Assembly (NCBI RefSeq): GCF_000143415.4
Contig: NW_003314277.1
Coordinates: 1,330,493 to 1,394,492, forward strand
Reading direction: 5' to 3'
Source: Selaginella moellendorffii
Taxonomy: Eukaryota > Plantae > Lycopodiophyta
Length of the DNA stretch: 64,000 nt
The first letter of the stretch is position 1. Each line of letters begins with the position of its first letter. Shown in pieces: positions 3,511 through 45,775 of this stretch. Under the pieces are notes generated by a model that was not told where the DNA came from, ran no database searches, and was given only the letters and a program-made list of their open reading frames with translations. The translations under genes and the position numbers were made by a program.

Positions 3511-3631
3511 CTTCCACGTGTCATACGCATAGATGCCCAATATGTATGATTTTAAATTTAAGGGTAGGAATATACCTTGCTCAAGTATTTTTAAGTAGCC
3601 ACTAATCAATGGGAATCGAACCATAGCATTT

Positions 3632-4286: not shown

Positions 4287-6974
4287 TTTGTGATCATGCA
4301 TGGACTCCTCCATGCTTAGCCCCATGGGCCACAACATGGGGGTGGTTAACTTTTGAAGTTAGCACTTTCAACTAGGGTATTTGTTCCCTCTGATTTGTTA
4401 ATCTCGTTTAGTAAGTCATCCGACCACTGTAACATGGTTTATGCATAAATATGAAAGTCCTTAACCATCGACTTTCATTTAAACCCATCCCTTTGAACAT
4501 TTAGAAACACTCCCCAACTTTGATAATTTTGCCTTATGGCAAGCTTCAAAACTATGCTTTTGCTGCGCCACTCTGATTTTGCACGTTATATGAACCATTT
4601 ACACTTACTTTTCTAAGTACTAGGTAGCTACCTAGAATTGTCTTTGGGAACTTTGAAGGAACTCTAGCTCTTAACTTGCTAAGGCCTTTCCTTTTGCAAG
4701 GTTTTTAATTGTTATATAGTCTAATATGGATAATTCAATATTTTAGACTCTCTATGGCATCACGATTGCTAATAATAACTGGCTCGAGCACCCACTTGAT
4801 TATCCACTCTCAACTCGCATAACCACCTTTGGTTAAACCCTTCGCTTCTTATGATTCGGTTTTATCCCTTTATTACTTGTTTTTTGGCCTCACACATTTC
4901 CTTTGGTTATTCTCCTCTAGTCCAGAAGGATAGATTTGCACCTTCTACCATACCTTAGCAAGTATTCATAGGGATGAACCTACTTGGTAGCATAGGGAGT
5001 GGTTCCTCAATCTAGGTATGCTCACCTTGTAATCCCACACACTAGGATTAATGTTGCTACTTATGGGCTTTTATATGCTCATCACTAGCCTTACCAAAAT
5101 CCTATTTTAGCTTTGTCCAATTTGGGTAGATGGACTTCTCCCATCTCCGTAACCTTAGACGTTTGGATAGCACCTTTTATTCATTATTCGTTTGGGACTT
5201 AGTCCTTTGTGCCTTATTTAATGCCCTCACAACACCAAATACCACTTCTTGGTGTTTTAGAGTGTTTGGGTGCCCCAATGATGTCCATTTTTTACAATGA
5301 ACATTCCTTTTACGACATTGATTTACTATATCGCAACATAAGCAATTTATCCCCCATAAAGGTATATTTAACTTCCTTATCCTAATAAGAAGTCTTGGGT
5401 AATTACCTTCTACCATTTTGATTAATTATTTTGCACCTTTTGCTTAGTTGCTTCATAGTTGTTAAGTTCTACAACTCATTGTTAGTGCTTTCACATCTCC
5501 ATCATTATTTGAGTCACCACACTTCAGCTGCATGCCTTCTAACTTAGGTTATGCCATTCCCACTTCCATTAGAATTCCTTTAGGAAAAGGTTTTCATGAA
5601 CCCACTAACTTGACTTCAAGGTATCACACTTTGGCACATTCAGTATCTCTACACCATTGGCTCCATGACCCTACCTTTATGACACTTCTTACTTATTTTC
5701 TTTTGGGAACCTTTTTCCCACGAATTTAGTATGGCATATTCTGCCATCAATGAGATATCTATTGTTTTTATACTTGGATCTTATGATCCTCCTCATCCTT
5801 CGTAGGCGCAACACACCTCAGTCCAAATGCTTCTACCAATCCCTTAAGACCATTCTTTGACTCTACTTGAGTCATCCAACTTTTTGGACTTTGTTAATTT
5901 GATGACCCGTAAGGTCCTACTTTTGAGGTGCCAGCTCGTTGGAATACAACTTTTTATATCCATGTCGTACTCATAAGGACCATCTTTGTAAATGTTATTC
6001 TAACACTTGATTATTTTCTGTTCCCTATAGCCTACCTTTGCTCCTTAGGACTATCCATCCATATGATGAGAATACTGACTCATCCTCTGAGCATACCCCC
6101 AACTCCTTGGGTTTGTTCCAACTTTTATAAAAGGTAGCCTTGGCTACAATTTCAAGGACTTGTGTCCTCATCCGTATTTGACCTCTCACGGTCATTAATT
6201 CCAGCCTCAAATTCATGAGCACCAGCCTTAACTATATGAGGATAATCTTGTGACTCCTTTATTGTTTTGAAGTCTTTATCTTTCCTGTGATCCCACTATA
6301 GTTTTTTACCATAACTATATTAGCCAGTTTGTTAAGTTAAATGGTCATCTGGATCACATCCTCAACTCTCTGAGGAAAACCTTATACTATTCCCAAGATC
6401 CCAAAGTCGCTCCCTCATTGGCTCATTTTTTATCCAACACATTGCTAACAGGTTCACTTATGAACTAAAGTGAAGAGCCATGCCCTTTCGACACGCTACT
6501 CCTTGAGGATAAGCCTTCTAATGCTAAGACAAGTGATGATATACTTGACCACCAATAAAAGTCGGACTAAGGAACAGCTTCAATACCAAATTGCAAGCGA
6601 CTAATTTTTCCATTCTACTTTAGTCACTTAACCACACCTCTGATCACTTGGAGGAGTCTTAGTCACAACATTGATAAGTCCAATTTAGGACTTGGGGCTT
6701 GCTAGCCCCAAAATTGGCATCCATACCACTCAACCTTTGCACTTGGTCTAAGTGCTCCGTGTGTCCAATCCTATGACCGACACCCAAAGGTTTCACTAAT
6801 ATATCAGTCTGTTACACTAAGGCCATGCCTATACACCTTTGTCACATTGGTGATCCAACACCACCTATATCACAATCCCATCTCTCAAACATTGGGCTAT
6901 CTGTCTATAAGTGGTCATCCCAGATCCACTTCTTAGCATCCTTAGGATGCCCGCAAACATGGGGAATAGCCTTC
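4287..6974 (-). mobile_element. Decayed LTR retrotransposon: 5' LTR part (6592-6974), degenerate PBS (6577-6588) and eroded internal region
   Basis: Minus-strand PBS-like TGGTATTGAAGC next to LTR end ...CGCTTGCA; the LTR matches 18276-18787 in inverted orientation; internal region full of stops. Confidence 0.6.
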
Positions 6975-6998
6975 AAGCTCTATTTCGTTAAAGTGGGA
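6975..6998 (+). repeat. Left terminal inverted repeat
   Basis: aagctctatttcgttaaagtggga, the exact reverse complement of 18252-18275. Confidence 0.92.
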
Positions 6999-8107
6999 TT
7001 TATTCAGTAAAATGGGACTAGGTACAAATTTTCAAGTATTTGAAAATGACGTGAAATTATATGTTTTTTGTCCAGGGGCTAGACATATCTGGGGCATGGT
7101 GACTAGCGCGGTGACCTTATGTCCAGACTGAGTCCATCTAGTTGTATAATAAATCTCATTGTCAAGGTGAACAAGCCGAATCTGAAGCTAAAGAAGAGCG
7201 ATGGCATGCGCGCACACACTATTTGTTTGTTCATTGAGCGTGTGGTGAGCTTTCCAAGATGAACATCATTCCTATTAGCCAGACATATAACTTAATGGTG
7301 AGAACATTTAGATATTATTCAATGTTATCTTTTTCTAACGAATCTAATTGTGAAGGTGTAGCAAGAGGCATTGCTAGTCTGGAGAAGTCATTTAACTCAT
7401 TTGACCCTTAGTGTATTTTCATGAAACTAAATAACATTCATATTATTAAGGAATTTCTCTAGTACCTTTTTTTTACGACATAGAGGCTTGCATTTCTTTC
7501 AAAGGTGATTTAGTAAAAGGCCTGAGGGCACATGCCATTCTATTTCTCAGACCGGTATTAAGATATACTAGTGCAAAGGGAAAAAGGTATTTGGTGATCA
7601 AGTAAATGGCATGAGGGCACACGCCATTATAAGCCTAAGCGCTAGTGGACACCTCCTTTTTGGTACTCTCAGTGGTACTATCATCCTTCTCCGGGTCAGT
7701 TGTTTTGCTTTGGATTGTTGTCTCTGACGTTACTGGGGCGTTCTCGATAGTTGTTAATGTTGCCGTTTGTTCAGAAAAATGATCACCTGGAGTATAGTAC
7801 GGGGAGTTTGGAAGACTTATATATTCTACATCTTCACCTATCTCCTTCTCCGTCTCCTTTTCTACCTCACTTACAGATTTTGTGCTTGCCATGAGAACGC
7901 TCTTCACCCTAAAATATGGAGTTCGTTGTGTTATAAAAGGAAACCAACACACACACTGCAAGGGAATGATGGTACATAAAGCACGTAAGCCCACAATATG
8001 GGTTTATGTGCCATTAATATGGGCCACATGCCATATTATTAGATTTATGCACGTGTGATTGGTAAATGCATATGTCACATCATCTTTGTTTTACCTCACA
8101 CACTATA

Positions 8108-11100
8108 TCAAGCCTCCTCTGATTCAGATTCGGATTGTTCACCTTGAAATAAAATACATTAAAAACTTTGTAAAGGAATATTAATGAATCTCACCTTGAA
8201 CCCGAGTTATGAATGCTCTTGCTGCATCTTTTGCATGGTCTGGCAAGGTGATGGTGGCACTCTGCTTCCGCATCCAACCATGCACAACATTATCCACCGA
8301 TATGCTCATGCTGGGATCCCTTGGATTCAGCACCCATCTCTTTTCTAGGCAATCCTTCGTATATCCGGAACTTGGCTTGAACCACTCCACAGTTACATTG
8401 AAGGAGTTAGTTTCCGCGTCCTCCTCTGCATCAGTGATGCAGCGCCCCACCCATATCATTTGTTTTTTATTACTGGGTCTGACAAGCACGACCATTCCTT
8501 TGCAGACCTGTACTGGATTGAATGCTGAATCCGGCTTCTTGTTCCTCGGCCCACAATAGTGATCCTCAACATCGTTATCTGTCACTGCATTTCCAGAGGA
8601 CATTGTTCCGCTACTATCTGGTGCTCTGGGTTCTGGCCAAAAGGACTCTTCCAATTCTTCATATACAACCGGCCCATTTTGGATAGCAGATATAATCTTC
8701 TCCCAGTATTCGAGCAAAGGCTTGCACCTCTAAAAATAGGATTCTCCACCAAACACCAACCCCCTCTTCCAGAAGGCAATATGCTGTCTAATCCCGGCCA
8801 CTATACTTTCCTGGTCTTTGAGTCCATCCGGGTGCATCGGCCGTGGGGAACCCTGAGGAATCATAGGTTCCCCAGTTATGGGATCTCTCTTGAAGAGTTC
8901 AATGCCGTCCACTGGCAGCCACACTGTGTCCCATTCTCTCATCTTGTACCTCATCACTGGAGCACCGTCACACATGCTGAAATGAAACTGAAGAGGCTTG
9001 GAGTGGCCAATCAGCGTTTCGGATCCATCCCTGATGTAGCCTCTTACAAACCCCTTAAAGTCTGGAACCTCTGTCAGAAGTGCAGCTTCAACAGTGCCTT
9101 TGATGCAATTTTGGAATTCATCGTAGAGTTGTGGGAGGGTGAGGACATTGGATCGCCGGAGGGACTCTGCCAGGTGACTGAACATGGCATCGACGTCTTC
9201 ATGAGTGTGCCCAACCATGAGAAAGCCAAGTGTAACCGTTTCAAATATGCCTTTGGCAACAAGCATCGCCAAGTACGCGAAGACGTACATGTTTTTGTTC
9301 TCACTGCCAGCATTGTCTGTTTGGAGCAGAAGATGGGGTGGAAGGCCACATCGGCCGCAAGAACTTCCTTGAGATTCTGCTTCGTTTGGATGAGGCTGTG
9401 CATTCACCGGGCGACCAGCCTCGTCGGAATGGCATGAGGCCTCACGTGATAACCCTACAATCTGACGGCCAACATATTCACTGGGATGGCATGGGGCCCC
9501 ACGCGATACTGCAAGCCTTTGCTCCTCCTCCAGCTGAACCCTGTATGGGGTTCGATCGACAAGGGCCTTATGCAAGGGTTGGCCGTTCAGCTCAGTCTGC
9601 GCACTTTGCAGAGACCTTAAGTGTTTTGCTAGGGACGCAATCATCATGTTTGCACCCCCGCCACCCCATAGAGGTACAAAGAAGTTCCCATAGTTCTGGG
9701 CACCATGCCCATGAGCGATTATGCCAAACAGAGACACAGGTAGCTGCATGGATGAAGAGATTGCCTTGGGGGCAGGATTGAGTCGAGGTAAGCACGTCTT
9801 TTTCTGGTCCATTTTGTCGTGGATGATGAAGAGGTAAGAGTCAGGTCTCTCCATGGAGAGAATCCTGTTATGATAATATGCAGTCCTGCAGCTTCTCTGC
9901 TCGATGTTGTGGTCGAGCCGCCTTCTAACCAACGTCTCTCGCTCTTGAGCGCTGCAAGAATTCTTCGACAAAGCTATTTTGATAGCAGTGCACTCGTCAC
10001 ACTTTGAAAAGCTGGAGTACTTTCCTATACTCACATCCCTGAACCTGTTGCTCCACAATCTACTAAATCTAGATTGGCTCAGCTTCCTGTAGCCATTACT
10101 CTGGAGTTCCCGATTCACATCTTCCAATATGGCCCCCTTGGTATACATGGAAGGGAGAACTCGTTGGGTGTCTCGTGTTCCATCTTCCAAGAGGCGGGTT
10201 TTATGTGGTTGCTGCTCGCTACATGTCTCGACAAACCTCTTGAAGATTGCCTCTCCATATACAACATGACCCCTGGTTTTGTGCGTACCGTCGTTCCCAT
10301 GGACTGCCTGTTGAATCCTTTATTCCTCGAACTCAGTTTTGATTCTGTAGAATGTGGTTCGAGGGACTCCATAAATGATTCTCCATGCCTTCATGCAGAC
10401 CAAACCCCTCTGGAAGACCATGCCCCCCACCTGATGTTCTGAAGCATCAATAGATGACCGTAATGCCTCATACACAAAATTGCGAGCTGCCTTCCAGGAC
10501 AATGTCTTGTATCTTGCTCTCTCCTCTTCAATAGCATCCCAATCAGCATGTTGACAGCACCTCCTCTTGCAACAAGCAACTGTCGAGACCATTCGAACCT
10601 CCATCGCCATTTTCTGCCTTTTCGGTTCGTTGCTTAGATCCCTTTGGCTGCGCTTTAGGAAGGTGTACTTTCTTTTCCCATGAAGAGATGTTCTGTCATC
10701 AGTTGTAGTGGTGTTTGATTGTGAATCCTTCACATTCTCAAACACTAAGTGCCTCAATTTCCACCGCACAATGCTTCCAATAGTCAGACTGTTTTCTTCT
10801 GTGTCAACAACCTCTAAAATCGCAACTCCAATATCATCCCAGCCCAATTCTTGATTAGCAACCGCATCTCTTGGATCGACAACTGTGGCTAAGCCCTCAG
10901 CTACCACCTCCCCCTCGGGGTTGTTTAGAAACACTTTTGCCTGAATCCATGTAGCACAGTTCTTAAGATCCACGGAGGGAACATGCGTCGCACTTGCGCT
11001 GTCCCCAACATCTGCTTTCTTCTGAAGATTTTTCAAGGCAACAACAACATTTACCCCGACGACCATCTCTCCTCGTTCAATAGCGACCACATTCCCATCG

Positions 11101-11249
11101 AAGACAGTCTCTACTGATACAGCAGCATTGCCTTCCCCAAGCCTTTCACAGTGTATAACAAAGTTCCGATCCATAGACACAAGGGTCCCTTTTGCAACTC
11201 TCTTCCCACCATTCAAAATGTAAACCTTTTCCCCAACCCTGAAGGCCAT
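8108..11249 (-). pseudogene. Sola-like RNase H-fold (DDD) transposase, ~1,030 codons, with two in-frame premature stops
   Basis: ORFs 10320-11249, 8730-10190 and 8181-8717 share one frame, split only by TAA (10320-10322) and TAG (8730-8732). Motifs: CCKRRCC, SKCDEC..H, IIHDKMDQ, QTDNAGSENKN, GHTHEDVDAMFS. Probable short last exon ending TGA at 8108. Confidence 0.8.
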
Positions 11250-11616
11250 TCTGAAAGTGCAGAAAAGAAGTTAAGACCATACAAAAAATGATTGGAGAAT
11301 GGCCTAAATCATAACATACCAAACAACCTCAATAGCATGAGGCCACATGCCATTATTCAAACATGCTATTGACACCCACGTGAAATTTCGCATTCACAAA
11401 ATTGGCATGAGGCCTCATGCCATCTTGATATACACACAGCTGCAGGCAAGTAAAAACATACATGACAATACACTAGCCATGAAATTGCAAGGGCCCAAGA
11501 TGGCATGTGGCCTCATGCCATTTCTAAATGTGGTCCTAAGCCATTCCATGGTGAACATACCAGGAAGCACAAGTGCCGAATATCAAGAGGAAGCGGTAGC
11601 CACACCAAAGACAGTG

Positions 11617-11760
11617 CCGCTCGCAACACCGCAACTACTCGTAGCGCCGCTCGCAACACCGCAACTGCTCGTAGCGCCGCTCGCACAAACTGCCACTCGC
11701 ATAAACTGCTGCTCGCAATGGCGCTCGCAATGCCGCAACCGCTCGTAGACGCATAAACCA
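11617..11760. repeat. 30-bp tandem repeat (GCCGCTCGCAACACCGCAACTRCTCGTAGC) in the divergent-promoter region of the transposon
   Basis: Two near-perfect units followed by degenerate units. Confidence 0.8.
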
Positions 11761-12289
11761 CAGCCCACAACGCCGCTTACACAAGCAGCGCTCACTGCGC
11801 TCAGCGGAACCAAGAACACGGCGCACAAAAATGATAGACCTAGGAATGAGTTCGAGAATTCAAAAATAACACACGCTTGAACGTCACATCAAATCCTCTG
11901 ACAAACCAGATCTTATGATTCCTCTGACAAATTTCAAACTGAGTAGCTTCTAGACTTTGCTGTCGGAGGTTGAACTTTGTCACATCATGTCCTTGCCTCG
12001 ATCCAGCTGTGCCATGTCAGTGATTCGAACTTTGCCATGCCATGTCAGCGATCCGCGCCAAGATTATTCGCCGTGTAAAGGAATAATTACGCTGTGTGTG
12101 TACGTCCATTTATGGCAATATAAGGCCACACGCCATTCAAAGAATAATGCTCGACATAAGGCCACACGCCATTCAAAGAATAATGCTAGTCGAGCATTTT
12201 TTGGTGCATTTTTGGGTTCAAAATTGCATGAGCCCACACGCTATAAAGTTTACCTGTACCAAAAATAGAAACAGCTTTATTTACTTGGG

Positions 12290-12389
12290 NNNNNNNNNNN
12301 NNNNNNNNNNNNNNNNNNNNNNNNNNNNNNNNNNNNNNNNNNNNNNNNNNNNNNNNNNNNNNNNNNNNNNNNNNNNNNNNNNNNNNNNN
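12290..12389. other. Assembly gap (100 N)
   Basis: Run of N. Confidence 1.
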
Positions 12390-12581
12390 ATTCAGTACAC
12401 ATTGGCATGCACCGATTGGGCTCTCGAGTGCAGTCCGGTTACAGATGGCGTGTAGCCTCACGCCATCTTAGGATGCAGCCTCAAGACATCTGATGCAGTG
12501 GTGAATGGCGTGTGGCCTCACGTTATTTCCAGCTGCTAGCTTTTCATCTGTCAGCTCTAATTGTTGTGCATTTTTGAACAG

Positions 12582-15500
12582 GCGAGGAATTGCGTTCTTC
12601 TTCCAGCCACTGTCAATGTGGATGCAGAGAAGGGGGAGGAGCTCACCAGTTGGACTTTCGGGATGGAAGGCGAGGATCTGATGCTGTACAACACAGATGG
12701 TGGGAGAAAAGAATGCATGGGGATCCTCATCCAAGTGACAAACACTCCATGCAGTTCCATGCAAGAATATGGACTGGCACTTGTGGTAGAGACAGCGTCC
12801 GCCTTCAAGATCCACCTTGCACATCCTAGCGGCTTCCCGGAGGGGGGCAGCGGCTATGAGGAATTCCTAGAGGGAGCTAGGGAGAGGTTGTCCAGGAGGC
12901 CCACAATTTCAAAGACGCTGCGGGTCTATGAAGATCACATGGAATCCACGGACCTCACCTACGGCGATGTTCAAAAACTATATTCCAACATTGAGCCGTT
13001 GAGAGTGCCTCCAGTTTGCGAAGCGAAGGGGAAGGGGGTCGATCTGGAAACTACCCCGAAGCAGAAAAGGGTGGTCAAGCTCAAGCCGACGTCCGACTCT
13101 GCTGCTCCAAAAAAGAAGCTACTCGGTGATGCCATTGCCTCGGGTTCGAACACTACACCCACCAAAAAGAAGAGCCGCAAAGAGCAGAAAGAGCAAGAAG
13201 AGGCAGCAAAAATCGTCGCAGATAATAGTACTTGTTACTATTCCAACAAAGTATATACAATCGACGTGAGCCGTATCGAGATCCAAAGCAAATACAACCA
13301 CAGGCTAGTATCTGATGAGTGGGTGGAGAAACTGAAGCAGAAGATGCTGGCAAGTCCAGTAACACCCGACATCGCAGACGTGATCCCCTACTACCGAACA
13401 ATGAAGGGCGAGACGAGGTTTCCAGACTTGATCAATAGGAAGGTGTTGGACGATCAGAACATCCGGTTCTATGCCGTCTCCGGGCAGCATTCTAGCTTGG
13501 CGATGCAACAGATAGTTGTGGATATTATGGTGGGCGAGGAGGTGAAGAAAGTCTTCAAGACAAGAGTTGTCCGCCTGATAAAAGGCAACTCGCCCCTCCG
13601 ATCTATCATATACATCTCCCACGCGCAAAATGTCAAGCAAGAAACGTGCTACAAATCGGGTCTGCACGAGACATTGGCACGAACACGGAAGCTCTGGGTT
13701 CAACTGAAGAAGCCACAAAAACCAGGACAAGGACGTGCACTAGCAACTAGCGCCTGGCAGGTAAGCCTCGTTGCATGTGGCATAGCATGTGGCCTCACGC
13801 CATTTCCATTGCAGGAATTCTCGAGTCTTCTCTCGAAAACACTGGGGGTCAATGACACACTCAGCATCCATAACATTCTACTCGCGACAAAAGTTGTTTT
13901 TGACAAATGGGTAGATGTGCTAAGGAGGTACCATGACGGGGAGTTGCTAAACTCAATGGGTGTGGAGGACGGCCGGAAGCCCAATGATTTGAAGCTCAAC
14001 GCCTTGCGTTTCTCGCGGTCTCTAGACGACGACGACCTTCTGACAGTGGCTAATGCTCTTCTACGTGGTGAGGTAGTCTTCAACAAGACCAAAATGACTC
14101 CCGGCCATATTGTGACATACGAGGACTTGTGCACGACTCTGAGAGCTCGTGCGCTATTGAAGGATTGGATCTTCGAGCAAGTGGCCGTGGCGAGGGTGAG
14201 CATCGACACCACGCAAGAGATGATGGAAGAGCTGGACTTGTCAAATGAAGACATCGACGAGTACGTGAAGGGGGCCCCCAAGTTCATCGATCTGCTGCGG
14301 GATGCCACGAAAAGTAAAGCTGAGAAGTTGGATCAGTATCCAAATTTCATTAAGAGGGATGTCGACCGCCGGCTTCAGAAACAGCTCGACCCCGCAGCAG
14401 AGGCCTATCGAGAACCTTACCGGGTATACGTGAATTCGGATGAGGATCAAAGGTGGAGGAGCATCGTTTCCCGCGGAGATGAGCAGGTCAAGAACATCTT
14501 TTGTGTGATGGACTTCACAAACGAGGAGATCACTCATGCAGACGAAGTCAGCTCCATCATTGACTTAATGGTGGGACTTGCGGAGGTGGAATCTTCAGTC
14601 CACTATATGATCTACGACTCCGAATCCTATCACAAGTTCTGGAAGGCCTTGAACGAGGTGAAGGCTCGGTTGAAAGGCAAGGAGATGCGGGAGATCCATG
14701 GGATAATGGCTAAGAAGAAGATACCGACGAATGTCCGCATCTTCACAGTCGCCCTTGTTATTGGTCCTGCAGCAGAGTGGGACTGGAGTGACTTCCCAGC
14801 TTCGTTCAACAAAGCCGATCGAATTGATCTGAGGGAGGTCAATTTACCCGTGCCTGAGGAACTGAAGACGGCTATGGAGCTTTCGAATCCAAAGAAAGCT
14901 CCAGGTGCAGCATGGGAAATGCTCAGCTGGGTCTTCAACGCAATAGCGGGTGACTCCAAGGGCAAATGCGTTGTCGAGTACAACTGCGGCGGACTATTCT
15001 TTCGAGCCGCACTACTNNNNNNNNNNNNNNNNNNNNNNNNNNNNNNNNNNNNNNNNNNNNNNNNNNNNNNNNNNNNNNNNNNNNNNNNNNNNNNNNNNNN
15101 NNNNNNNNNNNNNNNNCATGTTGGGCCGAGCTCACAACCTGCACAAGGTAAGGTCACGTGAGGCCTCACGCCATTTTGATTATAGATCGTTGTGAATATT
15201 CAGACACGAGGACTGAAAAGCGCACTGGTGGCGCGTCGAAGAAGGACAAACAGACAAGCAATAGGAAAAAAGGAGGTACAAATTATATTTGCAATGGCGT
15301 GTGGTCTCATGCCATTCCTTGCAGGAGACACTTCTTCAAAGGCAAAACAGGCAAGCACCAGCCAAGCTCAAACTGACAGTGGTCATAAAAAGCGAAAGCA
15401 CGTTGGACAGTCGTCGGGATCAGAGGCGTTTGATTCGAAAAGGAAGAAGGGCAACGAAAAGATGATAGGTAATGCCTCGCGGTTATGGCGTGTGTGCTCA

Positions 15501-17844
15501 TGCCATTCATTGCAGATCAAGGGCTGAGTGAAAGGAGCCAGTCACCACCTTCTGACTCAGATTCCTATGGCGGACTCCCCTTCCCCAATCTCAATGGAGA
15601 GGTACAATGGATGAGGGATGCTTTTCAAGTCAGGGCCACGTTTTTCTCATCTCGTCATCTTCGAAGGGTGCAAGAACGTGCAGAAACCATGTTAAGACAG
15701 TCGGGTGAGGATACGGTCCTAGGTCACGCACTAAAACAGGCTATGGATGTCTTGTATTTTGAGATGGAGACTCGGCCAGATGATTTTTCCAAGATGGTCC
15801 TGGAAAAACAAGCAATCCAGCCTGAGCAGCCTATGGAAGAAATGCAAGAGGGGGATGAGGAGCCAGAGAAAGATAATGAGCAGGAAGAGCAGAAGGACGA
15901 AGAGGAGGACAAAGAAGAGGAGGACGAAGAAGAGGAGGACGAAGAAGAGGAGGACGAAGAGGACTTGGATGGTCCTCACAATGGTGACGATCACAATAAC
16001 GACGATGACGATGATGACGATGATGGCCAGCCTGAGGTGGCCAAAGAGCAGCGGAGGAAGGTCATACAAGACAAACCATCAGGTAAATAATAGTACATCC
16101 ATTCCTAACCTTTTACCATTTCTAACATTGTCCATGTAGGTTGCAGAAGAAATGGTAAGTAGAGATTATTCAGTTGAATTAAGATACAAACTCTAGCCTT
16201 TAGTGTCGAGGAAGGATAGTGCCAAGCAAGGGTCGAAACGTATGTCCAATCCTTCAGAATCAGCAGTGCGCCCAAGTGATATCGGTCCTAGTTCCTCAAT
16301 AGCAGTTGATGGTAAATACAGTATAGTCGATTCAATGTGCTAATGAGTTTGTTTTTAGTAGCACGGGAGGATACCATCTCAATCGAAGGGAGATATTTGG
16401 ACATGCATATGGATCCGCCAGTGGACTCTACTTGCCTGCAAGAGTCATCAGAGCTGGTGGAGGCTACTATCCATATCAACGCCAAGCAAGCTGACCACGC
16501 TCCACTTGATGCTGCCCATACCACTGAGTCAATCTTGTCCACGTATCCAACTGACGGTGACCAGGCGCCATTGGACCCGCATGAGGCCGCCCCAGCCGCC
16601 GAGCCGGTCGTATCCTCATTTCCAACGTGTGCCCAATCGTCTGACTACGCGCCGTTGGAACCTCCCTACACCGCCCCTGCTGCCTGTTCGGTCATGTCCA
16701 CTTTGCCAACGGAGGCACCAGCTGAAATGGCGTGTGATCACACGCCATCGGAACCACCCCATGCCACTGTTGAGCCAGTTGTACCAGAGTCTACAGCTGA
16801 AATGGCATGTGCCCACACGCCATCGGATGCGATTGACCCCACATTGCAGAGGAGAGTATTTCCGCCCTTCACGTTTCCTCGACCAAAACCCTCTGAACGA
16901 CCATCGGGAGCACCATTCGCTAATATTGTAGATGGTAAAATTGACTTGTACCATTTTTTATGCTAACGCATTTCATTTCAGAGTCACGGCGAAAGTACTG
17001 TATCGTTTTTGATCTGAACGGTGTCCTTTTCTCCCATGAGCGTGGCTCGTCCTCGAATGTCACTGCACCCTCCAAAGCCTGCGGTCGCAAGTTGGTCAAA
17101 AGAGACAGATTCACATTAATCACACAGGAGAAACTGCGGGATCTAATAATGACCATGCGACACTTAAAACAGAGGGCCGGGTTCAATTTGCAATTGGGAG
17201 TTTGGACATCCATGATGCGCCACAATGCATTAACGTTGCTACAGATGATGCACGATCAGACGCGAGTAATATTACCATTTGACTTTCTCCTAACGCAGGA
17301 GGATTGCTTGACTATGGTCCATGTGAGGGGTAGCAATCCCATCTTCGTCAAGGCAGAGGCTGTAGTGATGAACCAGACTGCTAGGTCAAGTGAAATCCTC
17401 ATCATCGATGACTCGCCGATTAAAACTGCAGCGAACACGCACACATATGCAGTGCACCCCATCTCTTGCAGTATGGAAACTAGGGAGAAGAAACCGTATG
17501 TTCTGGGGGACCTTGCAAAACGGCTTGAAGCGATGGTGATAGAGAACCGGCCAGTCCAGGAGGTGGCTGCAGAAATCAACCAAATGGCAGATGGAACGGT
17601 ATATCAGAAGCCATTTGATCGGACAGACACCAGTCATCATTTATGGCATGTATATTGTCTAGCCAAGCACTATCCGCATCTCCATAATCTGCTCAACCGG
17701 ATGGGTTCTTCGACCACTGAACATGAGCGTGGACGTATTAGAGAAGAGATGGCATTACTATTGGGTTTAAATCCTGATAGTGTGGAGAGTGATGAAATTC
17801 CAAGATTATTGTATAGGCGTTGGAGGCAAAAAATAACAGTCTGA
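12582..17844 (+). CDS. Transposon cargo gene, spliced, ~1,600 codons: ParB/Srx-like domain + degenerate MTase-like region + acidic linker + FCP1/NIF-type HAD phosphatase-like domain (5' end unresolved)
   Basis: GT-AG introns at 13761-13814, 15148-15203, 15276-15324, 15469-15515, 16083-16139, 16155-16203, 16312-16358 and 16935-16981 link the separate ORFs in one frame. Motifs FYAVSGQHS, CIVFDLNGVLF, VWTS, IIDDSP. Confidence 0.75.
15017..15116. other. Assembly gap (100 N)
   Basis: Run of N. Confidence 1.
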
Positions 17845-18251
17845 GATGGCATGTATTTATTTAAAAATGTAACTTATTATGGCATGGGGTTCCATGCCAT
17901 TGTATTAATATTAAAAGACAATTCTTTGAGAGGATTTGCATTATACTAGAAGTGTTACAGCATGTTATTGGAAGTCTACGAAGTTGTTTTATTAATAAGG
18001 GGAAAGTAAAGATTGAATGGGGACTTGGGCTCCACCTAGACTCGGAGCAACTGAGCCAATATTAAAAGGATGGAAAGAAATTGGACGACGATGACAAGGA
18101 GAAGAGAGAGGTGAAGCAGTGAGAAGTGATTGAGTAGACATTTCCTTGTTTAAAATAAAATGGCATATGCCTCAATGCAGTTGAATTTTGTTATATTTAT
18201 ATACTATATAAAGGTTTGGAAACCTTATTTTACAAGTGGGATAATGACAAT

Positions 18252-18275
18252 TCCCACTTTAACGAAATAGAGCTT
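18252..18275 (-). repeat. Right terminal inverted repeat
   Basis: tcccactttaacgaaatagagctt; an extra inverted AAGTGGGA copy at 18234-18241. Confidence 0.92.
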
Positions 18276-18787
18276 TGGTGAGGAAGTCCCAGAGGACTGT
18301 GGGACTTAGTGGTCGGGCCTGTGGGCCTCGATCCGGTGGCAGTGTTGGCAAACATGGCCAAAGGCAGAAAGGGACTTAGTGGGGACTGACAGAGGGATAT
18401 TGGGGAAGGCTATTTCCCTTGTCAGTGGGCATCCTAAGGATGCTAAGGAGTGGATCTAAGATGACCACTCACGGATGGTGTGCCTAGTCTTGGAGAGCCA
18501 AGACTGTGATGCAAGTGGTATTGGACTACCAGTGTGGCAAAGGTGATTGGGCATGGCCTTAGCATAACAAGCTGCCATGTCGGTGGTACCTTTGAGTGTC
18601 GGTCATGGGATCAGACACGTGGAGCACTTGGACCAAGTGCAAATGTTGAGTGGCATGGATGCCATTCTCGGGGCTATCAAGTCCCAAGTCCCGAATTGGA
18701 CTTATGGAGGTTGTGAATGAGACTCCTCCAAGTGGTCGGAGGTGTGGTTAAGTGACTAAAGTAGAATGGAAAATTTAGTCGCTTACA
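18276..18787 (+). mobile_element. LTR 3' portion ending ...CGCTTACA, abutting a Gypsy RT coding region
   Basis: Inverted homology to 6592-6974 and 2194-2510; CA terminus directly followed by RT codons (KCV..YLG). Confidence 0.75.
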
Positions 18788-21290
18788 AGTGCGTGTTGGG
18801 GTGTAAGGACACAACTTATCTTGGGTACTGTATTTCTCGTGTGGGTTTGCAAGTTGATCCTGACAAACTTGTAGCAATTCTAAAGTTCTGTACTCCGAAG
18901 TGTGTGAATGATGTGCAGCGCTTCCTAGGCAAGGTGCAGTATCTCAGTCGTTTTGTGGATCATTTTTCTGATCACACTGCACCGTTGCGAGCGTTGCTGA
19001 AGTCATCAACATCATTTTTCATATAGTCTTCAGATTGTGAGTGGGCATTTGTGAATCTCAAAGAGCTATTGACGACTCCTCCGGTTTTGGCATATCCTGA
19101 CTACACTCAACCTTTTATTTTGCGCGTAGATGCTTCTGATATTGGTCTTGGAGGTGTGTTAATGCAAGAAAGCCTGAGTGTGCCTGGTCAGCGTCATCCC
19201 ATTGCATATATAAGCTGTACGTTATAACCAGCAGAGGTGAACTACTCCATGACAGAGAAGGAGTGTTTAGTGGTAGTTTGGGGTTTCGAGAAACTTCATG
19301 CATATCTACATGGTTCTCAGACGTTACTTGAAGGTGACCATGCTACTGTTACTTCATTATTGAAGCGGAAGAACTTGGTTGGTCGTACTGCTCAGTGGGC
19401 TTTGAAGCTTCAGATATATGATTTTGATATTGTTCATCGCCAAGGGAATTCTATGGCTGATGTTGATGCCCTTTCTCAAGCTCCTCTTCTTTGTTTGCTC
19501 TCTTCTCATGTTTCTGATGAGTATGTTGTTCCAGTATCTGTGGATTTTCTAGATAAGGATTTTGTGCCGTTGGCGGTTGCTGTACTTGACGTTCAGTGTC
19601 CACAAGGTGCAAAGCACGATCTACCTTCTCTTGATGAGGTTCGCAAGGCTCAAAAGATTGAGCCGTGCATTTGAAGGCTTCGAGATGCGTTTGAGAATCC
19701 TGCACCACTTACTGATGACTTGCCTTTCGGCATTTACATTCTCAATATCGCCTTGAAGATGGCCTTGTTTATTTTGTGGGGACGGATCCTGATGATTATT
19801 TACGGCTGGTGGTGCCTTCTGTCTTTATTCCGCAATTTCTCCATGCCTACCATGATTCTCCTGTTCTAGGTGGGCAAATGGGACATCGTCGTGTGACCAA
19901 GAAGCTGCACAGGTCTTTCTATTGGCCGGAGATGCGACGTGATGTTATCCAATATGTGCGTAGCTGCGTTTGGTGCCAAGCTCGTAATACTCCCCCTTGT
20001 CCTGCGAAAAGACGATTGGAGTCAATTATAGTTTCCCGTCCGTTTGAGTTAGTGGCATTTGATCTTATGGGACCTTTTCCACGGTCGACTGCTGGCAATG
20101 AGTATGTTATTATTGCTTCTGACTACTTGCCTCGTTAGGTGGAAGTTGGTGCTCTTGCTAGTGCCTCTGCAATTGCTGTTGGATACTTCCTCCTCATTCG
20201 AGTGGTGTTCCAGCATTCTTGTCCAGAGCTAATTCTTTCGGATAATAGTCTTGCATTTATGGCTGAGGTATTTCATGTTTTGACGTCTCAGTTGGGGATA
20301 CACTACACTTTCACAAGTGCTTATCATCCACAATCAAACAGTTTGGTGGAACGGATCGTTCAGACATTCAAAGGGATGATTGCGAAGTATGTGAACTTTC
20401 AGCATTCGGATTAGGATGGTTATTTGCCGTCTCTTCGGTATGCCTATGTCACAGGGGTGCAAAGTTTTGTTAGTGTGGCGATGCTAAAAGCTGGGCCTTA
20501 CATCCTCCTCTCCAACATGTATGCTCTTGGCGAGCGCTTGGGTCTCCCATCAAAGTTCTTCCTTCTTCCATCCAATCAAAAATATAAACTTTTATATGGT
20601 CATGATCCAATATTACCAATAGAACTGGGTTTACCTTCGCGATTGCGACGAGCTCCCGATGCTAGGTCATGGGATCAATATTTGACGAGCATTCTTCCAC
20701 TTGTCCGAGCAGAGTCTGCCGAACACTTAGGACGCGTATAAGTGGGACAACAATGGCACTACAACTCCTATCATCGTCCACCTACAGAGTATAAAGTGGA
20801 TGATTTGGTGTTGGTCTGTTTTCCCCATCTTACAGTACGTGGTTTATCTAAGGGGCTCCTTGCGCAGTGGAAAGGACCGTATCGGGTGTTGCGGCAAGTT
20901 GGACCACAAGTTTATGAGGTTCGGCATGACGTTCAGCAGGCCAATCCTCCGGAGATTGTGCATGTGCAGCGGTTAAAACGCTTCATACAAAGGGATCAGG
21001 AGCAGTTAATACCATCTACAGATCCACCAATGCCTCCTCCTGACGTTCCTCCAGATCCCGGCCCATCTACAAGAAAACCCTGAAGGCCTTCTATTGTTCC
21101 GAGAGGAGGGGATGATGTGAGGGCCAAATGTACAGTTACAATGCCGTATATTAATATTAGCGTAGTGGGATTTTGGTAGCCGTTGGATTGGTTTCAATCC
21201 AGACCACTTGCTCTTGTATATAAGCTAGGGTTTTTAGGTTAATTGATATGCACATTCCTGTATTCCCTTTCCATATTCCAAGCACTCACA
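18788..21290 (+). mobile_element. Ty3/Gypsy pol relic (RT end, RNase H, integrase), PPT and partial 3' LTR
   Basis: DVQRFLGKVQY, VDASD, NYSMTEKECL, Zn-binding H/C, FDLMGPFP, AYHPQSNSLVER, WKGPYRV; several stops; PPT GAGAGGAGGGGA 21101-21112 followed by TGTGA at 21116. Confidence 0.92.
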
Positions 21291-21419
21291 AATATAAATA
21301 TTTTAAAAGGTATTATGAAGTAAGAAACTCTACTCTTAAAAACATCAAAAAATGAAAGACAAATTGTACAAATTATCTAATGGAAGGAAAACCAAAACTT
21401 CAATTTTGGATGGAAAGAT

Positions 21420-22300
21420 GTTATATGCTTGCTCCTTATGGTCCTGGAAGAACCTAAAGATGATCACATCTCTGCACTTTCTCACTCCAAGCTGGATGCT
21501 GCTGCTCCTTACATCTTTGAGCTCATGGTCAAAGATGTTGGATGTCTTGCCACCGCCTCCAAAGTCATCAAACTCAGAGAATTCATAGGTAAGTTTATCT
21601 CTGGTGTGTTCTGCCAGGTTTTATTTGGACTTGATCAGCCTGATTGAGAAGCAGACCCTGAGCATCAATGTCGGGAAGTTCATACCACCACTTGATTATC
21701 TTGATCTCCATGGAGTGAACCAGAGAATAAGGGACGATCTGATGCCAAAGTTGCAAACTCGAGATCGAATCCTCGGGCCAGGAATTGATTCCCAAGGACT
21801 GGACGGATGTGCTTCTGTCTCTGCAAGACGCTGCTGATAATAATCTCTCAGACATGGCCCTGCTCACTGTAAGTAAACGCAAAGTTCTTGATCTGGTTGC
21901 AGCTGAATTGACAACATGAAGGGAGCTGTACTGGGTGATGGCAGTCATGCAAAAACCGCATGAAGAAATCCAAGACGCAATTGGGACCAAACGCCTCCTA
22001 CATGCACGCAATCCTGAAAGAGGCATTAGCCAGCTACACGGTTCCTTGGAAAGCGTTCAGGACGAAAGTCTTCTGGGTTAGGCCAATGTTTTTGATCTCT
22101 TCCTATAGGCAGATGTTGATTCGGGAGATGATCCCATTCTCTGCTGGATGCAGGATGTGCCTGGGGCATCCAGTTGCTGTTCGTTTCATCCCCTTCGCAG
22201 TTTTGCAAGCCCAGCCTTCCACCGGATCAAAACTTGGTCGACCTGATAGAGAAACAAGCAAGCTGGCTTCATGGCTAACTTTGCAACTCCCCGGCTGAGC
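21420..22300 (+). pseudogene. Cytochrome P450 fragment (copy A)
   Basis: YMHAILKEAL (K-helix) and IPFSAGCRMCLG (heme motif); frameshifts; PERF segment inverted. Confidence 0.8.
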
Positions 22301-22444
22301 TGCAAATCTCTGTATGAATGAGGGTGAAAACTGTCAATTCACAAAATAAAAAGCATTATGCACTTACATGAACTCATTGAAAATCTGATGAAAACAAGTT
22401 TTCCTAGTCCCATCGAAGAACAAGTTTAAGTTGGCATCGAGGAA

Positions 22445-23812
22445 ACATTCAAACTTCTGTTGTAGCAAGACCTGTAGCACGGTTTCGACGTAAAGGCCGA
22501 GAAGCATCCCTTGAGGCATGTCCTCGGAGCTCAAAACCTCTTGGGCCGATATGCTCTGTTCCTGGTCCGCATGAAATGGTTCCAGTCCTCTTGGACGAGC
22601 TGCAAATCCGCAAGCTTGGAGCGAAGGCCCTGGCAGCAGTTGGCGTGAATGGTGCAAACTCTTTCCATGTCGCTGGCTGGTTCGCAAAACCCACTGAACA
22701 CCTCCGTTGGCATGAACCGGATCTTGGCTCCTATGGCCTGGAACTCTGCGTGGAGCTTGATCCTGTCGAAGACCTCCTGGTCGTGGATGTGGTAGTAGAA
22801 CTTAGCATGCCTGTCCCAGTACTTGAAGAGCTCGATCGTCCGGTTATTGGATCTCACGTGCATCAACCCCGTGTTGTCCTGGTTGTGAATGTCCGTCTCG
22901 TTGCCATTGAAAAAATCGCAAGCCAGATCCACGTCTGCTTCCGGAGAGAAATTCGAGAAGGGATTTCACAACCACAAGACGTCTGCATCCTGGAGACGAT
23001 TCCTGGAGAAGAAGTTAGCACAGGAAGTCAAAGAGAAAGAGGTGCAAATTTCTACCGAGAAGATGAAGTTAGAAGAATGTCTCTGCTGAAAAGTCCACGC
23101 CATTGCTCTCGAGGAGGATGCAGTGCGAATGAGCTTCCAGGCATTTCTTGTGCGCAGATGGATCCAACGTGAAGATCACCAGCGTCGGAAGAAGGCGGGT
23201 TGTATCATCACCAAATCCTTAAAATTATATGTATTTTATTATAACTTAGCCTTTTATATAAGAGTGCATAAAAGTCTATTAAAGTTTTATATTAAAATAT
23301 GCATTTAGAGCAACTTGTTTTCGATAGTGGGGAGCAAGTATTTTAAAACTCATTTAATAAACAAAGAGAATTAATAAAGAAATCAATGCTAGTATTTCTT
23401 TATCTCAGAAATAATTAAAGCTTTTAAATGTAGATAATAACTAAACCACCATACTAGCTTAGCCAGGAAGTAGGATAGCAGTTTTGAAAGCCTTATTCAA
23501 AGGAGTCACGATGACAGTCTTGTTAAAAGCAGCTTCCTTCAGCACAGTTTGAAGATTGTGAAACTTGTCTGCGGTCTGAAAAAATACAAAAAAAGGAAAG
23601 AAAGAAAACAGTAATCAGTCGAATAGAAGAGGATTTAACTTACCAAGCTGTTGATGCTATCAGCGGCAATCCAGGGTAACAGTAGCATCCAAAAGGCTGC
23701 ACTTGTAGGCCAGCTACCTGTTGTACCACTGTGGCTCCAGAGACAAGTCCAGTTGTAGACGCTGAAAATATAGAACAGAACAAGCAAGCCCGGTCTGCTA
23801 CGGCACCTCATC
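22445..23812 (-). pseudogene. Nucleotide-diphospho-sugar transferase (GT77-like) pseudogene (copy A)
   Basis: Homologous to 38513-39713, with deletions, a 3' frameshift and a ~245-bp AT-rich insertion at 23213-23460. Confidence 0.85.
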
Positions 23813-23977
23813 ACTGGAAAAAGAAAAAGAAAACACAAAACAGTTGTAACTTGGGGAAATCACAGCCATTGATCCGGTTGACTTGGCCCATTTTTTGCCA
23901 ACTTGGGTGGAGCTCATACGTATATCTGCACACCCCCTCCCCCTTCACCCAAGTCAAAGCCTGGGTTTCAGAGAGCT

Positions 23978-26300
23978 ATGGAGGACATAATGAGTTCGAT
24001 CAATGTGATTTCTGAGCTTGCGCCAAATGCCAAAGCGTATCCTCGCCTGTGCAGGCTACTGTTTCTGGTATGCAGTCGACATGCCCGGTACTGCCCCATG
24101 TGGATCAAATGCGGGGTCAAATCTCACCTCTCACCATGGATCAAATATGCGGCCTTGGAGCGCCTTACCCATCTATTAGCTAGGGTGAAGAAATTTCTCA
24201 GGCAATGCAGTCATAAAAAGCACTGGGAGTGGATCGCTGCATCCAGGTATGACAGGAGATGGGAAGTTGTGGAACTTCTGTCAGAGCTTCAGGAATGTGT
24301 GGACATAATCAACTCGGAGACAATTCGAACGTCAGAGGGTATTTGGGCCCGTGTTCTTGAGCGGCTGTCCGATATTGAGCAGGAGCAGGATCTGTATTAT
24401 GACCTCCACAGTTTGGCAAACGAAGATTGTGACGAATTGGTGAAGAATGCAAGTTCAGAGGAGCTTGTCGAGTACTTATCTCAAAGACAAAGCGGCTACT
24501 GTCCAAGGATAACCATGGAAGATTGGCCTACTGGTCCCTTGTCTGATTTGAGACTTCGTTGGCTTGGTCAGACTGCTATACTTGTTGAGCTCGATAATGA
24601 TGAGGATCTTGAGGTGACGAGGGGTCCTTTCCTAGGTCCAAGTTCCTCTATTGTGCAGATTTTTGGATGGTGCCACTGCCACAATACCGGGAAGCGTTAC
24701 ATACTTACTGAGAATCACTACCATCGCACGTTTGCGGAGAGTAGCCACCGTAACAGACAGGTACTCACCGTTTCTCGCCTTCTGGAAGTCACTTACCAAG
24801 TTGCACAGACTGTTCTACACTTGCATAGACATGGTTTTCGGCAAGTTGAGATTGACCTGAAGTTGTATAATACCGTTGAGTTCATAGTTTATTGGTGGCG
24901 ACAGAAAAGGGGAAATGCAACAAACTTGAAGAGTTTACTCTGTGAATCATTAAAACTGTTTGTGAAGCTGGTTAAAGCTAGTTATGGTAAACAGAATGAA
25001 GAGGCCCTGAAAAAAATCATGAACCAGAGTGACTATGACTTTCCAGACATGGATGTGATAATCGATATCTTGCAAGCCTTTCGAAGACAGCACGCAGGTG
25101 TGTATAAACATAACAGGCTATGAATTTGAGCTCATGCTAGCAGGACAGGTGCTGAGTGGAGAAGCAGTTTTCAACACTCTGAGCTCCCCGGTGTTGAAGG
25201 CATTTACAGAGGCCGACCCTGCCACAGAATTGAGCTTTACAGTTCTGATGTGCCCCCTACACAGTTTGAGAACCTGCCTAAGGTGGTAAAGAAGTCGGCT
25301 CTCTATCTTAGTAGTTCATACACATCTGACTTTTGACTTTCAGGTTGTTGCAGAACTCAGCGTTCTGCAGCACCCCCACATCGTGCGGTACTATGCATCT
25401 GAGGCAGGCGTTAAAGCAATAAACTATCCATGGATTGTGAATTGCATGCTCTTCATTTATGAGGAGGACGTACCTGGAATAACACTTGCAAGTCTGTCAT
25501 TCAACGAAGATGAAGTTCGAAGATACACTTATCAGATTTTATCTGGCTTGGAGTATCTTCATAGCAAAGGCACAAGACACGGGTTCATGCTTTAAGATTG
25601 ATGGTGAAAACTTCATACTGATCTGTAGATTCTTTGTCAGGGCGCTCACAGCTGCAAACATACTTGTGGATACTTCGCATGAAGTTGTTAAGCTCTCTCA
25701 TTATGGCATCGCTTTGCAATCGGTATGTGTCTAGTCTGTAAACTCTGAAACTGTTACGATTTCCTTACCAGATTGAGGTCGTTCCTGAGATGCCGGCTGA
25801 GGTTTGTGGATTGATAATTGTGGCCACATTGCTGAAACTTGTATCTCCAGTATTCTGATAGTCTTTCAGCGGATGTTTGGAGCCTGGGCTGTGTTGTACT
25901 TGAAATGATCAAGAATGTGGAGCCACAGAGTAAATACTCAAGCACGGTTTGTATGCTCCCTTTTATTTATTTTTTTAAAAAACATTTTAAGTGGTTGGTT
26001 TCATCACAGCTCTCACACTTCTTTGGACGGGAAGTAGTCAACGTCCAATCTGGTGAGGAGGAGACCCCTGAAATGCCTGGGGACAGCTTCCTAGTCGATT
26101 GCAATTACTTTTTGCATCGGTGCTTCGAAAGAGGAACAAATAGACCCGCAGCGGCGCAACTGCTTGATCATCCTTTCGTGCGCAGGGTAAGCTGGTCTTT
26201 ACATAAACAAAATAATATGTGAGTTATTATTTGCATGCTAGGCATTCTATGACGAGTTGGAACGGCCGCGGTGGAAGAAAAGTGGAGGAAGAGGAGATTG
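23978..26300 (+). CDS. MLKL-like N-terminal helical bundle + degenerate kinase-like domain + MAPKKK-like pseudokinase domain
   Basis: LARVKKFLRQCSHKKHWEW bundle; IVQIFGWC and QVAQTVLHLH; spliced exons with HPHIVRYY, QILSGLEYLH, AANILV, ADVWSLGCVVLEM, LLDHPFV. Boundaries approximate. Confidence 0.65.
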
Positions 26301-26905: not shown

Positions 26906-27015
26906 TAGGTTTTTTCTGCGGAGTTTCTTTTCCAAGTGATTATTGCGTGATTCCATGTAACATCTCAACAAAAAGCTGTATTCCCACGAGTAGGTTTTCT
27001 CTGCGAAGGTACTTA

Positions 27016-30750: not shown

Positions 30751-30807
30751 AACATCTTTCCATCTGAAGTTGAAGTTGAAGTTTTGGTTTTTCTTCCACT
30801 AGATAAT

Positions 30808-43840: not shown

Positions 43841-45775
<1,935 letters not shown>

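What the first reader, a model, noticed from the sequence alone, without database searches (positions are those of the whole stretch)
13761..15515. Four consecutive ~50-nt introns each contain one copy of the palindrome
Predicted GT-AG introns 13761-13814 (54 nt), 15148-15203 (56), 15276-15324 (49) and 15469-15515 (47) each hold the motif (13782, 15153, 15294, 15485). A probable upstream intron (12501-12581) does too. Removing them joins four separate ORFs in frame. The four downstream introns lack the motif. Inference: introns may let the element place binding sites inside a coding gene, the hairpin may regulate splicing, or these introns arose by introner-like spread.
Basis: partly seen in the sequence, partly recalled or inferred. 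Interest (0 to 1): 0.85.

Follow-up and report, generated by a model that had tools for sequence, protein, structure and literature searches.

The report
Plant transposon hides palindromes in introns
A plant jumping gene carries about twenty copies of its own 22-letter palindrome, one in each of four tiny predicted introns, and a second gene predicted to fold like the bacterial palindrome-binding protein ParB, which likely binds these sites to regulate the element; similar designs are known from algae.

Summary
The four predicted introns each carry one 22-bp palindrome (ATGGCRTGWGGCCWCAYGCCAT), and the four downstream introns carry none. But only 4 of 20 copies lie in these introns. All 18 close copies in the window lie inside one 11.3-kb DNA transposon (24-bp TIRs, DUF7869 transposase). 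The host gene is the element's divergent accessory gene: ParB/Noc-fold domain, helical domain, degenerate N6/N4-methyltransferase-like region and NIF domain. Introner spread is not supported: intron 1 is supported at the same site in distant homologues, the introns are unrelated outside the palindrome, and in relatives one transposase intron occurs both with and without that family's own palindrome. At least five related families each carry a different ~22-bp palindrome. Best reading: DNA binding sites for the element's ParB-fold protein, kept mainly in non-coding DNA, as for VANC/VANDAL and algal ParB-accessory transposons. New detail: in three introns the palindrome's CTCAY sits at the branch-point position (-16 to -18), so it likely has two jobs. 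No RNA read confirmed introns 1-4, and binding is untested.

The parts
6975..6998 (+). left terminal inverted repeat (24 bp, perfect match to the right one)
   Evidence: long contigs of runs X4 and X5 begin at 6977 and 6975
18252..18275 (-). right terminal inverted repeat
8181..11251 (-). DUF7869 transposase gene, one coding exon; this copy has two in-frame stops where other copies read open codons
   Evidence: Pfam PF25273 E 9e-43; translation; 92 homologues; other copies
11253..11560 (-). predicted 5'-UTR intron of the transposase (GTATGT..TTTCAG just before the ATG), holding palindromes 11332, 11402 and 11500
   Evidence: sequence only; not seen in RNA
12582..17844 (+). accessory gene, predicted 9 exons: ParB/Srx-fold domain (13176-13760), helical domain, degenerate methyltransferase-like region (about 14400-15016), acidic and Pro-rich linkers, NIF/HAD domain (16945-17841)
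   Evidence: NIF E 9e-5
12510..12581 (+). upstream intron; the acceptor is used in a diverged copy with a donor inside palindrome 12505. A canonical donor and one more palindrome copy lie further upstream, in contigs that run into the N run at 12290-12389
   Evidence: (joint 12509^12582, depth 4; loose ends)
13761..13814 (+). intron 1 (54 nt, phase 0, stop-free) with palindrome 13782-13803; branch-type CTCAC at -18
15148..15203 (+). intron 2 (56 nt) with palindrome 15153-15174 next to the donor
15276..15324 (+). intron 3 (49 nt) with palindrome 15294-15315; CTCAT at -16
15469..15515 (+). intron 4 (47 nt) with palindrome 15485-15506; CTCAT at -16
16083..16981 (+). four motif-free predicted introns (16083-16139, 16155-16203, 16312-16358, 16935-16981); three have CTAAY at -15/-16
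7201..7627 (.). palindrome copies 7201, 7517 and 7606, downstream of the transposase
9429..9507 (.). palindrome copies 9429 and 9486 inside transposase coding sequence, in a length-variable segment
12115..12526 (.). palindrome copies 12115, 12151, 12223, 12445 and 12505 between the two divergent genes
16727..16823 (.). two palindrome copies read as protein (AEMACDHTPS, AEMACAHTPS) in a Pro-rich exon
17879..17900 (.). palindrome copy just after the accessory gene's stop codon

Best explanation
The four predicted introns belong to the accessory gene of an 11.3-kb plant DNA transposon, and their palindromes are four of about twenty element-specific 22-bp sites that the element's own protein, predicted to have a ParB fold, likely binds as a dimer on double-stranded DNA. 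Shown: the element, its two divergent genes, the confinement of the motif to the element, its bias to non-coding DNA, and a different palindrome in each related family. Inferred: the protein loads at the sites, possibly spreads, and through its methyltransferase-like and NIF domains keeps its own family active or protected from host silencing. Introns would be the places inside a long coding gene where a site costs nothing. In 47-54-nt introns space is so tight that the palindrome's right arm (CTCAY) likely also serves as the branch point.
For: 18 of 18 matches at <=4 mismatches lie between the TIRs; none in the other ~52.7 kb. 16 of 20 sites are non-coding (p=5e-6) and 4 of 6 sites in the accessory gene are intronic (p=5e-4). 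The model of 13176-13760 (pLDDT 78) matches Noc 7ol9 (E 2.4e-4) and ParBs by Foldseek, and PadC (Z 10.3, rmsd 2.8, 99 aligned) and KorB (Z 9.5, rmsd 2.6, 94 aligned) by VIA. The C-terminal part of the Selaginella homologue P0094 matches N6_N4_Mtase models at TM 0.67-0.70. Related transposase loci carry their own palindromes: L001, L005, L021, L041 and the L008/L045 group; 42 of 80 loci have >=3 copies of the L008-type core, 328 observed against 2 in shuffles. L045 holds ParB-like (weak, E 0.24), helical (E 2e-9) and NIF remnants with palindrome arrays before the gene and before the NIF exon. Branch register: CTCAY at -18/-16/-16 in introns 1, 3, 4 against CTAAY at -15/-16/-16 in introns 5, 7, 8; post-hoc p about 0.013; T at motif position 14 in 4 of 4 intronic against 5 of 16 other copies, p=0.026. 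Precedents: passages of PMC12477816, bioRxiv 10.1101/2025.02.11.637652 and PMC5735166.
Against: No binding data. No helix-turn-helix or other DNA-reading domain was identified: the second model is poor beyond residue 190 and gave no fold match. The nucleotide motif reads SGQHSxxA, not the arginine-bearing GxxRxxA that I recall for bacterial ParB, so CTP clamping is not shown. The window's own methyltransferase-like region has no Pfam or NCBIfam hit and reads IFCVMDF where a DPPY-type motif (recalled) is expected. Accessory-gene remnants were seen in only 4 of 80 related loci, plus one weak hit, although 42 have palindromes; many loci are short or decayed, but the transposase is the gene that always accompanies the sites. 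No spliced read for introns 1-4. Sites are not spaced more evenly than chance (p=0.48). The related loci largely come from repeated samplings of what is probably one host and are not independent.
Confidence: 0.62

Rival explanations
1. The palindromes are internal binding sites for the DUF7869 transposase itself (end pairing or self-activation), and the ParB-fold protein does something else.
For: Palindromes flank the transposase in most related loci where no accessory gene is visible (42 of 80 against 4 of 80). A search listing (bioRxiv 10.64898/2026.08.24.746577, start of abstract only) reports sequence-specific self-activation by a Mutator transposase.
Against: Sites lie throughout the interior and none within 200 bp of either end. 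The densest cluster is at the accessory gene's 5' end. A ParB-fold protein beside inverted-repeat arrays is the pattern reported in red-algal Plavaka elements with an unrelated transposase.
Confidence: 0.17
2. The palindrome works mainly as an RNA hairpin that hides the branch point or donor and so tunes splicing of the accessory gene.
For: Introns 3 and 4 fold into a hairpin over the predicted branch A (z -2.5, -1.7). CTCAY is in branch register in 3 of 4 introns. One donor is used inside a palindrome.
Against: Introns 1 and 2 fold no better than shuffles. 16 of 20 copies are outside these introns. A-C mismatches on the + strand are as common as G-U pairs in the intronic copies (3 and 3). In relatives the palindromes lie about 100 and 215 nt from the acceptor.
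Confidence: 0.1
3. The palindrome is a site for a host transcription or chromatin factor that the element exploits.
For: The densest cluster is in the divergent promoter region.
Against: Absent from the host-like genes of the window. Each related family has a different sequence, which fits a co-evolving element protein better than a conserved host factor.
Confidence: 0.06
4. The introns arose by introner-like insertion of a small palindromic mobile element.
For: Introns 1, 3 and 4 are 69-74% alike overall, against 46-66% for the other 25 pairs, and share a similar 3' tail.
Against: The 5' parts outside the palindrome are not alike (p 0.12, 0.14, 0.96), and motif-free intron 8 has a similar tail. 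Intron 1 is supported at the same site in homologues of 18-29% identity, and in L045 the matching intron has no palindrome. No GT..AG skip in three DNA-like runs. In relatives one intron exists with two palindromes (8 of 8 long forms) and with none (8 of 8 short forms).
Confidence: 0.04

Closest known systems
Sola1-1_Ec32 of Ectocarpus with its ParB + N4C/N6A methyltransferase accessory gene (PMC12477816; abstract, outline, passages, part of the reference list and supplement rows seen)
   Same: [quoted passage not shown]
   Different: Brown alga, 21.5 kb, 282-bp imperfect TIRs, 4-bp TSD. Here a land plant, 11.3 kb, 24-bp TIRs, an added NIF domain and a degenerate methyltransferase motif. The word 'palindrom' does not occur in that paper's main text. 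I could not compare the transposases.
Plavaka PAG3 of Bostrychia (bioRxiv 10.1101/2025.02.11.637652; passages seen, supplements closed)
   Same: ParB-like accessory protein with inverted-repeat arrays in the same element, proposed as its binding sites.
   Different: EnSpm/Plavaka transposase; ParB fused to a 2OG oxygenase; tandem arrays adjacent to the gene. Here the sites are dispersed singly, including inside minimal introns.
VANC/VANDAL anti-silencing system of Arabidopsis (PMC5735166; passages seen)
   Same: An element-encoded protein binds a family-specific motif concentrated in introns, intergenic and terminal non-coding regions; motifs differ between families.
   Different: Mutator-like transposase; 9-bp non-palindromic motif in tandem repeats; no ParB fold is mentioned in the passages read; binding and demethylation were shown there, not here.
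Bacterial ParB-parS and Noc-NBS
   Same: ParB/Srx fold and multiple palindromic sites on the same DNA.
   Different: No ParA; altered nucleotide motif; no HTH identified; 22-bp rather than 16-bp sites (16-bp parS from abstracts); eukaryotic transposon.
Introner elements (recalled, no paper read)
   Same: Short introns sharing a sequence.
   Different: The shared part is only the palindrome, which is mostly outside these introns; the position of intron 1 is old; no presence/absence variation seen.

Membership tests
DUF7869-transposase DNA transposons | PF25273 domain above its cut-off | tested here: met
   146.5 bits against cut-off 26
DUF7869-transposase DNA transposons | terminal inverted repeats | tested here: met
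   24-bp perfect TIR
Sola1 superfamily | transposase groups with Repbase Sola1 proteins | not testable with these tools
   no Sola1 reference sequence held; the defining paper was not held
Sola1 superfamily | 4-bp target-site duplication | tested here: inconclusive
   the two flanks are opposite-facing copies of another repeat, cut at different points; no TSD is readable
ParB-methyltransferase transposon accessory proteins (Ectocarpus type) | ParB/Srx-fold domain | tested here: met
   Foldseek Noc E 2.4e-4; VIA PadC Z 10.3, rmsd 2.8, 99 aligned
ParB-methyltransferase transposon accessory proteins (Ectocarpus type) | N6/N4 methyltransferase domain | tested here: inconclusive
   fold supported for homologue P0094 (TM 0.67-0.70); for the window's protein the model is low-confidence, with no family or fold hit; catalytic motif not recognisable
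ParB-methyltransferase transposon accessory proteins (Ectocarpus type) | divergent to the transposase within one element | tested here: met
bacterial ParB CTPases | arginine-bearing GxxRxxA motif (recalled) | tested here: not met
   the family reads SGQHSxxA
bacterial ParB CTPases | HTH domain that reads the palindrome | tested here: inconclusive
   the helical domain after the ParB fold is well predicted but has no clear match
VANC-type anti-silencing systems | family-specific motif enriched in non-coding DNA, including introns | tested here: met
VANC-type anti-silencing systems | protein binds the motif and derepresses the family | not testable with these tools
   needs ChIP or a transgene
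Introner elements | whole-intron similarity between sites | tested here: not met
   5' parts unrelated
Introner elements | recent positions absent in homologues or other copies | tested here: not met
   intron 1 supported at the same site in distant homologues; no intron-less DNA form; introns 2-4 lie in a linker for which no homologue was found

The most novel reading that the evidence does not exclude
Land-plant DUF7869 transposons run a parS-like system: each family has evolved its own 22-bp palindrome and a matching ParB-fold protein that loads and spreads over the element. In this family the sites in the protein's own introns double as branch points and hairpins, so one 22-bp word is read as DNA by the protein and as RNA by the spliceosome, which could couple site number to expression of the binder.
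Probability: 0.3. Interest if true: 0.8.

Novelty: new variant of a known kind. Interest (0 to 1): 0.55.

Why it matters
[quoted passage not shown] This element gives a defined protein, a defined 22-bp site and at least four further family-specific palindromes, which makes the self-recognition idea directly testable with a built-in specificity matrix. If true, a bacterial chromosome-loading fold serves plant transposons as a sequence-specific epigenetic targeting device. The overlap with branch points would show how such sites fit into minimal introns.

Tried and rejected
No whole genome was held, so the motif could not be counted in host introns genome-wide; a heuristic scan for host introns in the window gave only 5 candidates. 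Word-based homologue searches with the accessory protein found nothing. The scan of metagenome contigs with the ParB alignment confirmed 0 of 103 pattern matches. No RNA holder on record was listed. RNA raw-read runs X10 and X11 laid only 6 and 3 reads, which says nothing for or against expression. Three of 18 phmmer hits (P0093, P0097, P0106) are repeat proteins and were dropped. The ~400-bp inverted repeat around the element was first taken for long TIRs and rejected: it is 81% alike, differs at many sites from the laid runs, has far higher depth, and continues as a retro-like repeat. A candidate ninth intron at 17266 was rejected as coding. Even spacing of sites was not significant. Rfam: no match in 6900-18400. 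Profile searches of PDB sequences and Pfam with the ParB alignment gave no ParB hit. Fold searches of the second model were uninformative. Paper searches: 'DUF7869' 0 papers; ParB+transposon+Selaginella+methylase 0; the others gave only the algal and VANC precedents. None of them searched for 'branch point', so the claim that this overlap is not in print is untested. PMC7466625, PMC5751038, PMC4738411, PMC8367383 and bioRxiv 2021.09.26.461848 were searched by term and added little. Complex prediction was not used, as no protein pair is claimed.
Full report
Observation. The motif is a perfect 22-bp palindrome, ATGGCRTGWGGCCWCAYGCCAT. The window has 22 matches at <=6 mismatches, 20 of them in 7201-17900; at <=4 mismatches there are 18, all in that span, against 0.01 expected. 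After the N run at 15017-15116, removing introns 2-8 gives 791 codons without a stop, and retaining any of introns 2-4 breaks that frame. Intron 1 is 54 nt and stop-free, so the frame argument does not apply to it. The frame across the N run is not shown.

Splicing evidence. Direct RNA support is nearly absent. No run on record as RNA holds the stretch. Of five RNA or possibly-RNA runs laid, two raw-read runs gave 6 and 3 reads. X1 contigs run unspliced into intron 1 and through intron 8; X1 may be DNA. The single splice seen is 12509^12582 (72 nt, GT..AG) in a depth-4 contig of a diverged copy; it confirms the upstream acceptor and puts the donor inside the palindrome. Contigs that run into the first N run show one more palindrome preceded by a canonical donor, so the real first intron is probably longer and holds three copies (inference). 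Homology supports intron 1. The 18 residues it would encode are absent from annotated homologues of Selaginella (WQ-EF, with two annotations differing by two residues at exactly this junction), Adiantum and Calypogeia. In addition, 9 of 17 homologue rows (8 clusters) end shortly after a V at this point, as unspliced gene calls would; one row (P0109) runs straight through and one (P0104) ends earlier.

The element. A 24-bp perfect TIR lies at 6975-6998 and 18252-18275. The longer inverted repeat outside it is another, older repeat, and no TSD is readable. The minus strand encodes a DUF7869 transposase with two stops in this copy that other copies lack. Three DNA-like runs cover the interior evenly in long contigs about 99% identical, with no GT..AG skips. 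One of them holds only 2.55 million letters in all, which suggests a young multicopy family, but the tool's depth is not a copy number. The host is a land plant; named relatives of the two genes are from Selaginella, a fern and liverworts. I did not determine it further.

The host gene of the introns. The model of 13176-13760 (pLDDT 78, 14 sequences) matches Noc, ParB, PadC, KorB and sulfiredoxin folds. The Atlas lists unnamed eukaryotic clusters, fungal DUF3723 and a ParB_N cluster as look-alikes of the same domain in a homologue. A helical domain follows, then a region whose Selaginella counterpart matches N6_N4_Mtase models but which is unconfirmed in the window's own protein, then linkers and a NIF domain. 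The Adiantum homologue P0125 has the ParB-like, helical and NIF parts in the same order.

Where the sites are. 16 of 20 are non-coding (p=5e-6); in the accessory gene 4 of 6 are intronic (p=5e-4). Three more lie in a predicted 5'-UTR intron of the transposase. Four are in coding DNA, in variable or low-complexity segments. The commonest variation at motif positions 6 and 17 (G/A and C/T) fits CpG decay (inference).

Relatives. Eighty loci with related transposases often carry their own palindromes, none matching this one (2 matches at 4 mismatches in 922,635 nt). L001, L005, L021, L041 and the L008/L045 group each have a distinct word of about 20-22 bp. The L008-type core occurs 328 times against 2 in shuffles, and 42 of 80 loci have at least three. 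In that group a predicted intron interrupts the transposase where the window's gene has none. I tried 55 of the 80 loci (near-duplicates and some others left out by hand); 19 could be anchored and 36 could not. Eight long forms (247-294 nt) each hold two palindromes, eight short forms (127-143 nt) hold none, and three intermediate forms hold 1, 0 and 0; that is 17 copies in 3886 intron nt against 0 in 18661 coding nt. These are decayed copies, probably from one host sampled repeatedly. They show that the palindrome is gained or lost within an existing intron. L045 has remnants of the accessory gene with arrays upstream and before the NIF exon, and its intron-1 counterpart has no palindrome. 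Against my reading, accessory-gene remnants were found in only 4 of 80 loci plus one weak hit.

Dual use. In introns 1, 3 and 4 the A of the palindrome's CTCAY is at -18, -16 and -16; in motif-free introns 5, 7 and 8 a CTAAY puts A at -15, -16 and -16. Intron 6 has no such word, and intron 2's palindrome is at -36. Chance of at least 3 of 4 in register is about 0.013, and the T needed for this word is in 4 of 4 intronic copies against 5 of 16 others (p=0.026); both tests are post hoc. The branch consensus (YTNAY) is recalled. Only introns 3 and 4 form above-background hairpins. Outside the palindrome the introns are not alike.

Mechanism. Most likely (0.62) the palindromes are DNA sites for the element's ParB-fold protein, used to mark or protect the family; binding, spreading and any modification are inferred. 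Rivals: transposase sites 0.17, mainly a splicing hairpin 0.10, host factor 0.06, introner 0.04.

What is known. A divergent ParB-methyltransferase gene is described for Ectocarpus Sola1-1_Ec32 (PMC12477816: abstract, outline, passages, reference part, supplement rows). ParB with adjacent inverted-repeat arrays is described for Bostrychia Plavaka (bioRxiv 10.1101/2025.02.11.637652: passages; supplements closed, and they may describe the arrays further). VANC21 binds family-specific motifs in introns and intergenic DNA of VANDAL21 (PMC5735166: passages). Earlier unchecked notes of this scan describe similar plant elements in other genomes; they led me to the Ectocarpus paper and are not counted as support. 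So the system is a variant of a known kind. What my searches did not find in print is its land-plant DUF7869 form with a family-by-family palindrome code; the overlap with branch points in minimal introns was not searched for in papers, only in the scan's notes (none). Interest 0.55.

Noticed in passing
window 8107-8115: This copy lacks about 416 nt present in other copies, with a 9-nt overlap at the break; the missing part appears to hold another palindrome.
   Followed up: partly
window 6581-6974, 18276-18798, 2191-2507: The element's two ends sit in opposite-facing copies of one high-depth retro-like repeat, cut 128 bp apart: a rearrangement, a target preference or a chimeric assembly across the N runs.
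   Followed up: partly
window 18790-21000: Decayed Ty3/gypsy-like RT-RNaseH-integrase region to the right of the element, recognised by eye.
   Followed up: no
window 21062-24991, 27015-33441, 37347-41256: Three 82-99% identical copies of a 2-4 kb segment, one inverted; one includes a nucleotide-diphospho-sugar transferase ORF.
   Followed up: no
window 26-330 and 2999-3522: Two arrays of 11-12/23-bp tandem units.
   Followed up: no
window 44133-44873, 54175-55248, 55461-57221, 61310-63634: Host-like genes: RNA cap methyltransferase, SRF/MADS-box ORF, PPR protein and ankyrin-CCCH protein; no close palindrome match among them.
   Followed up: partly
window 12084-12187: A 36-nt duplication creates copies 12115 and 12151; the laid DNA-like runs also show the form without it, so site number varies between copies.
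   Followed up: partly
window 15148-15185: An in-frame alternative AG in intron 2 would put the palindrome's CTCAC at -18, but gives a 38-nt intron (read from the sequence).
   Followed up: no
L001 500-2000 and L021 7500-8600: In both, family-specific palindromes cluster upstream of an acceptor just before the transposase ATG, as in the window.
   Followed up: partly
P0125 residues 250-440: Atlas look-alikes include fungal DUF3723 clusters (score 0.95), hinting that DUF3723 is ParB-like.
   Followed up: no
window 12399-12790: Runs X2, X3 and X10 hold transcripts or contigs of a diverged copy of the accessory gene's 5' end with a different upstream neighbour.
   Followed up: no
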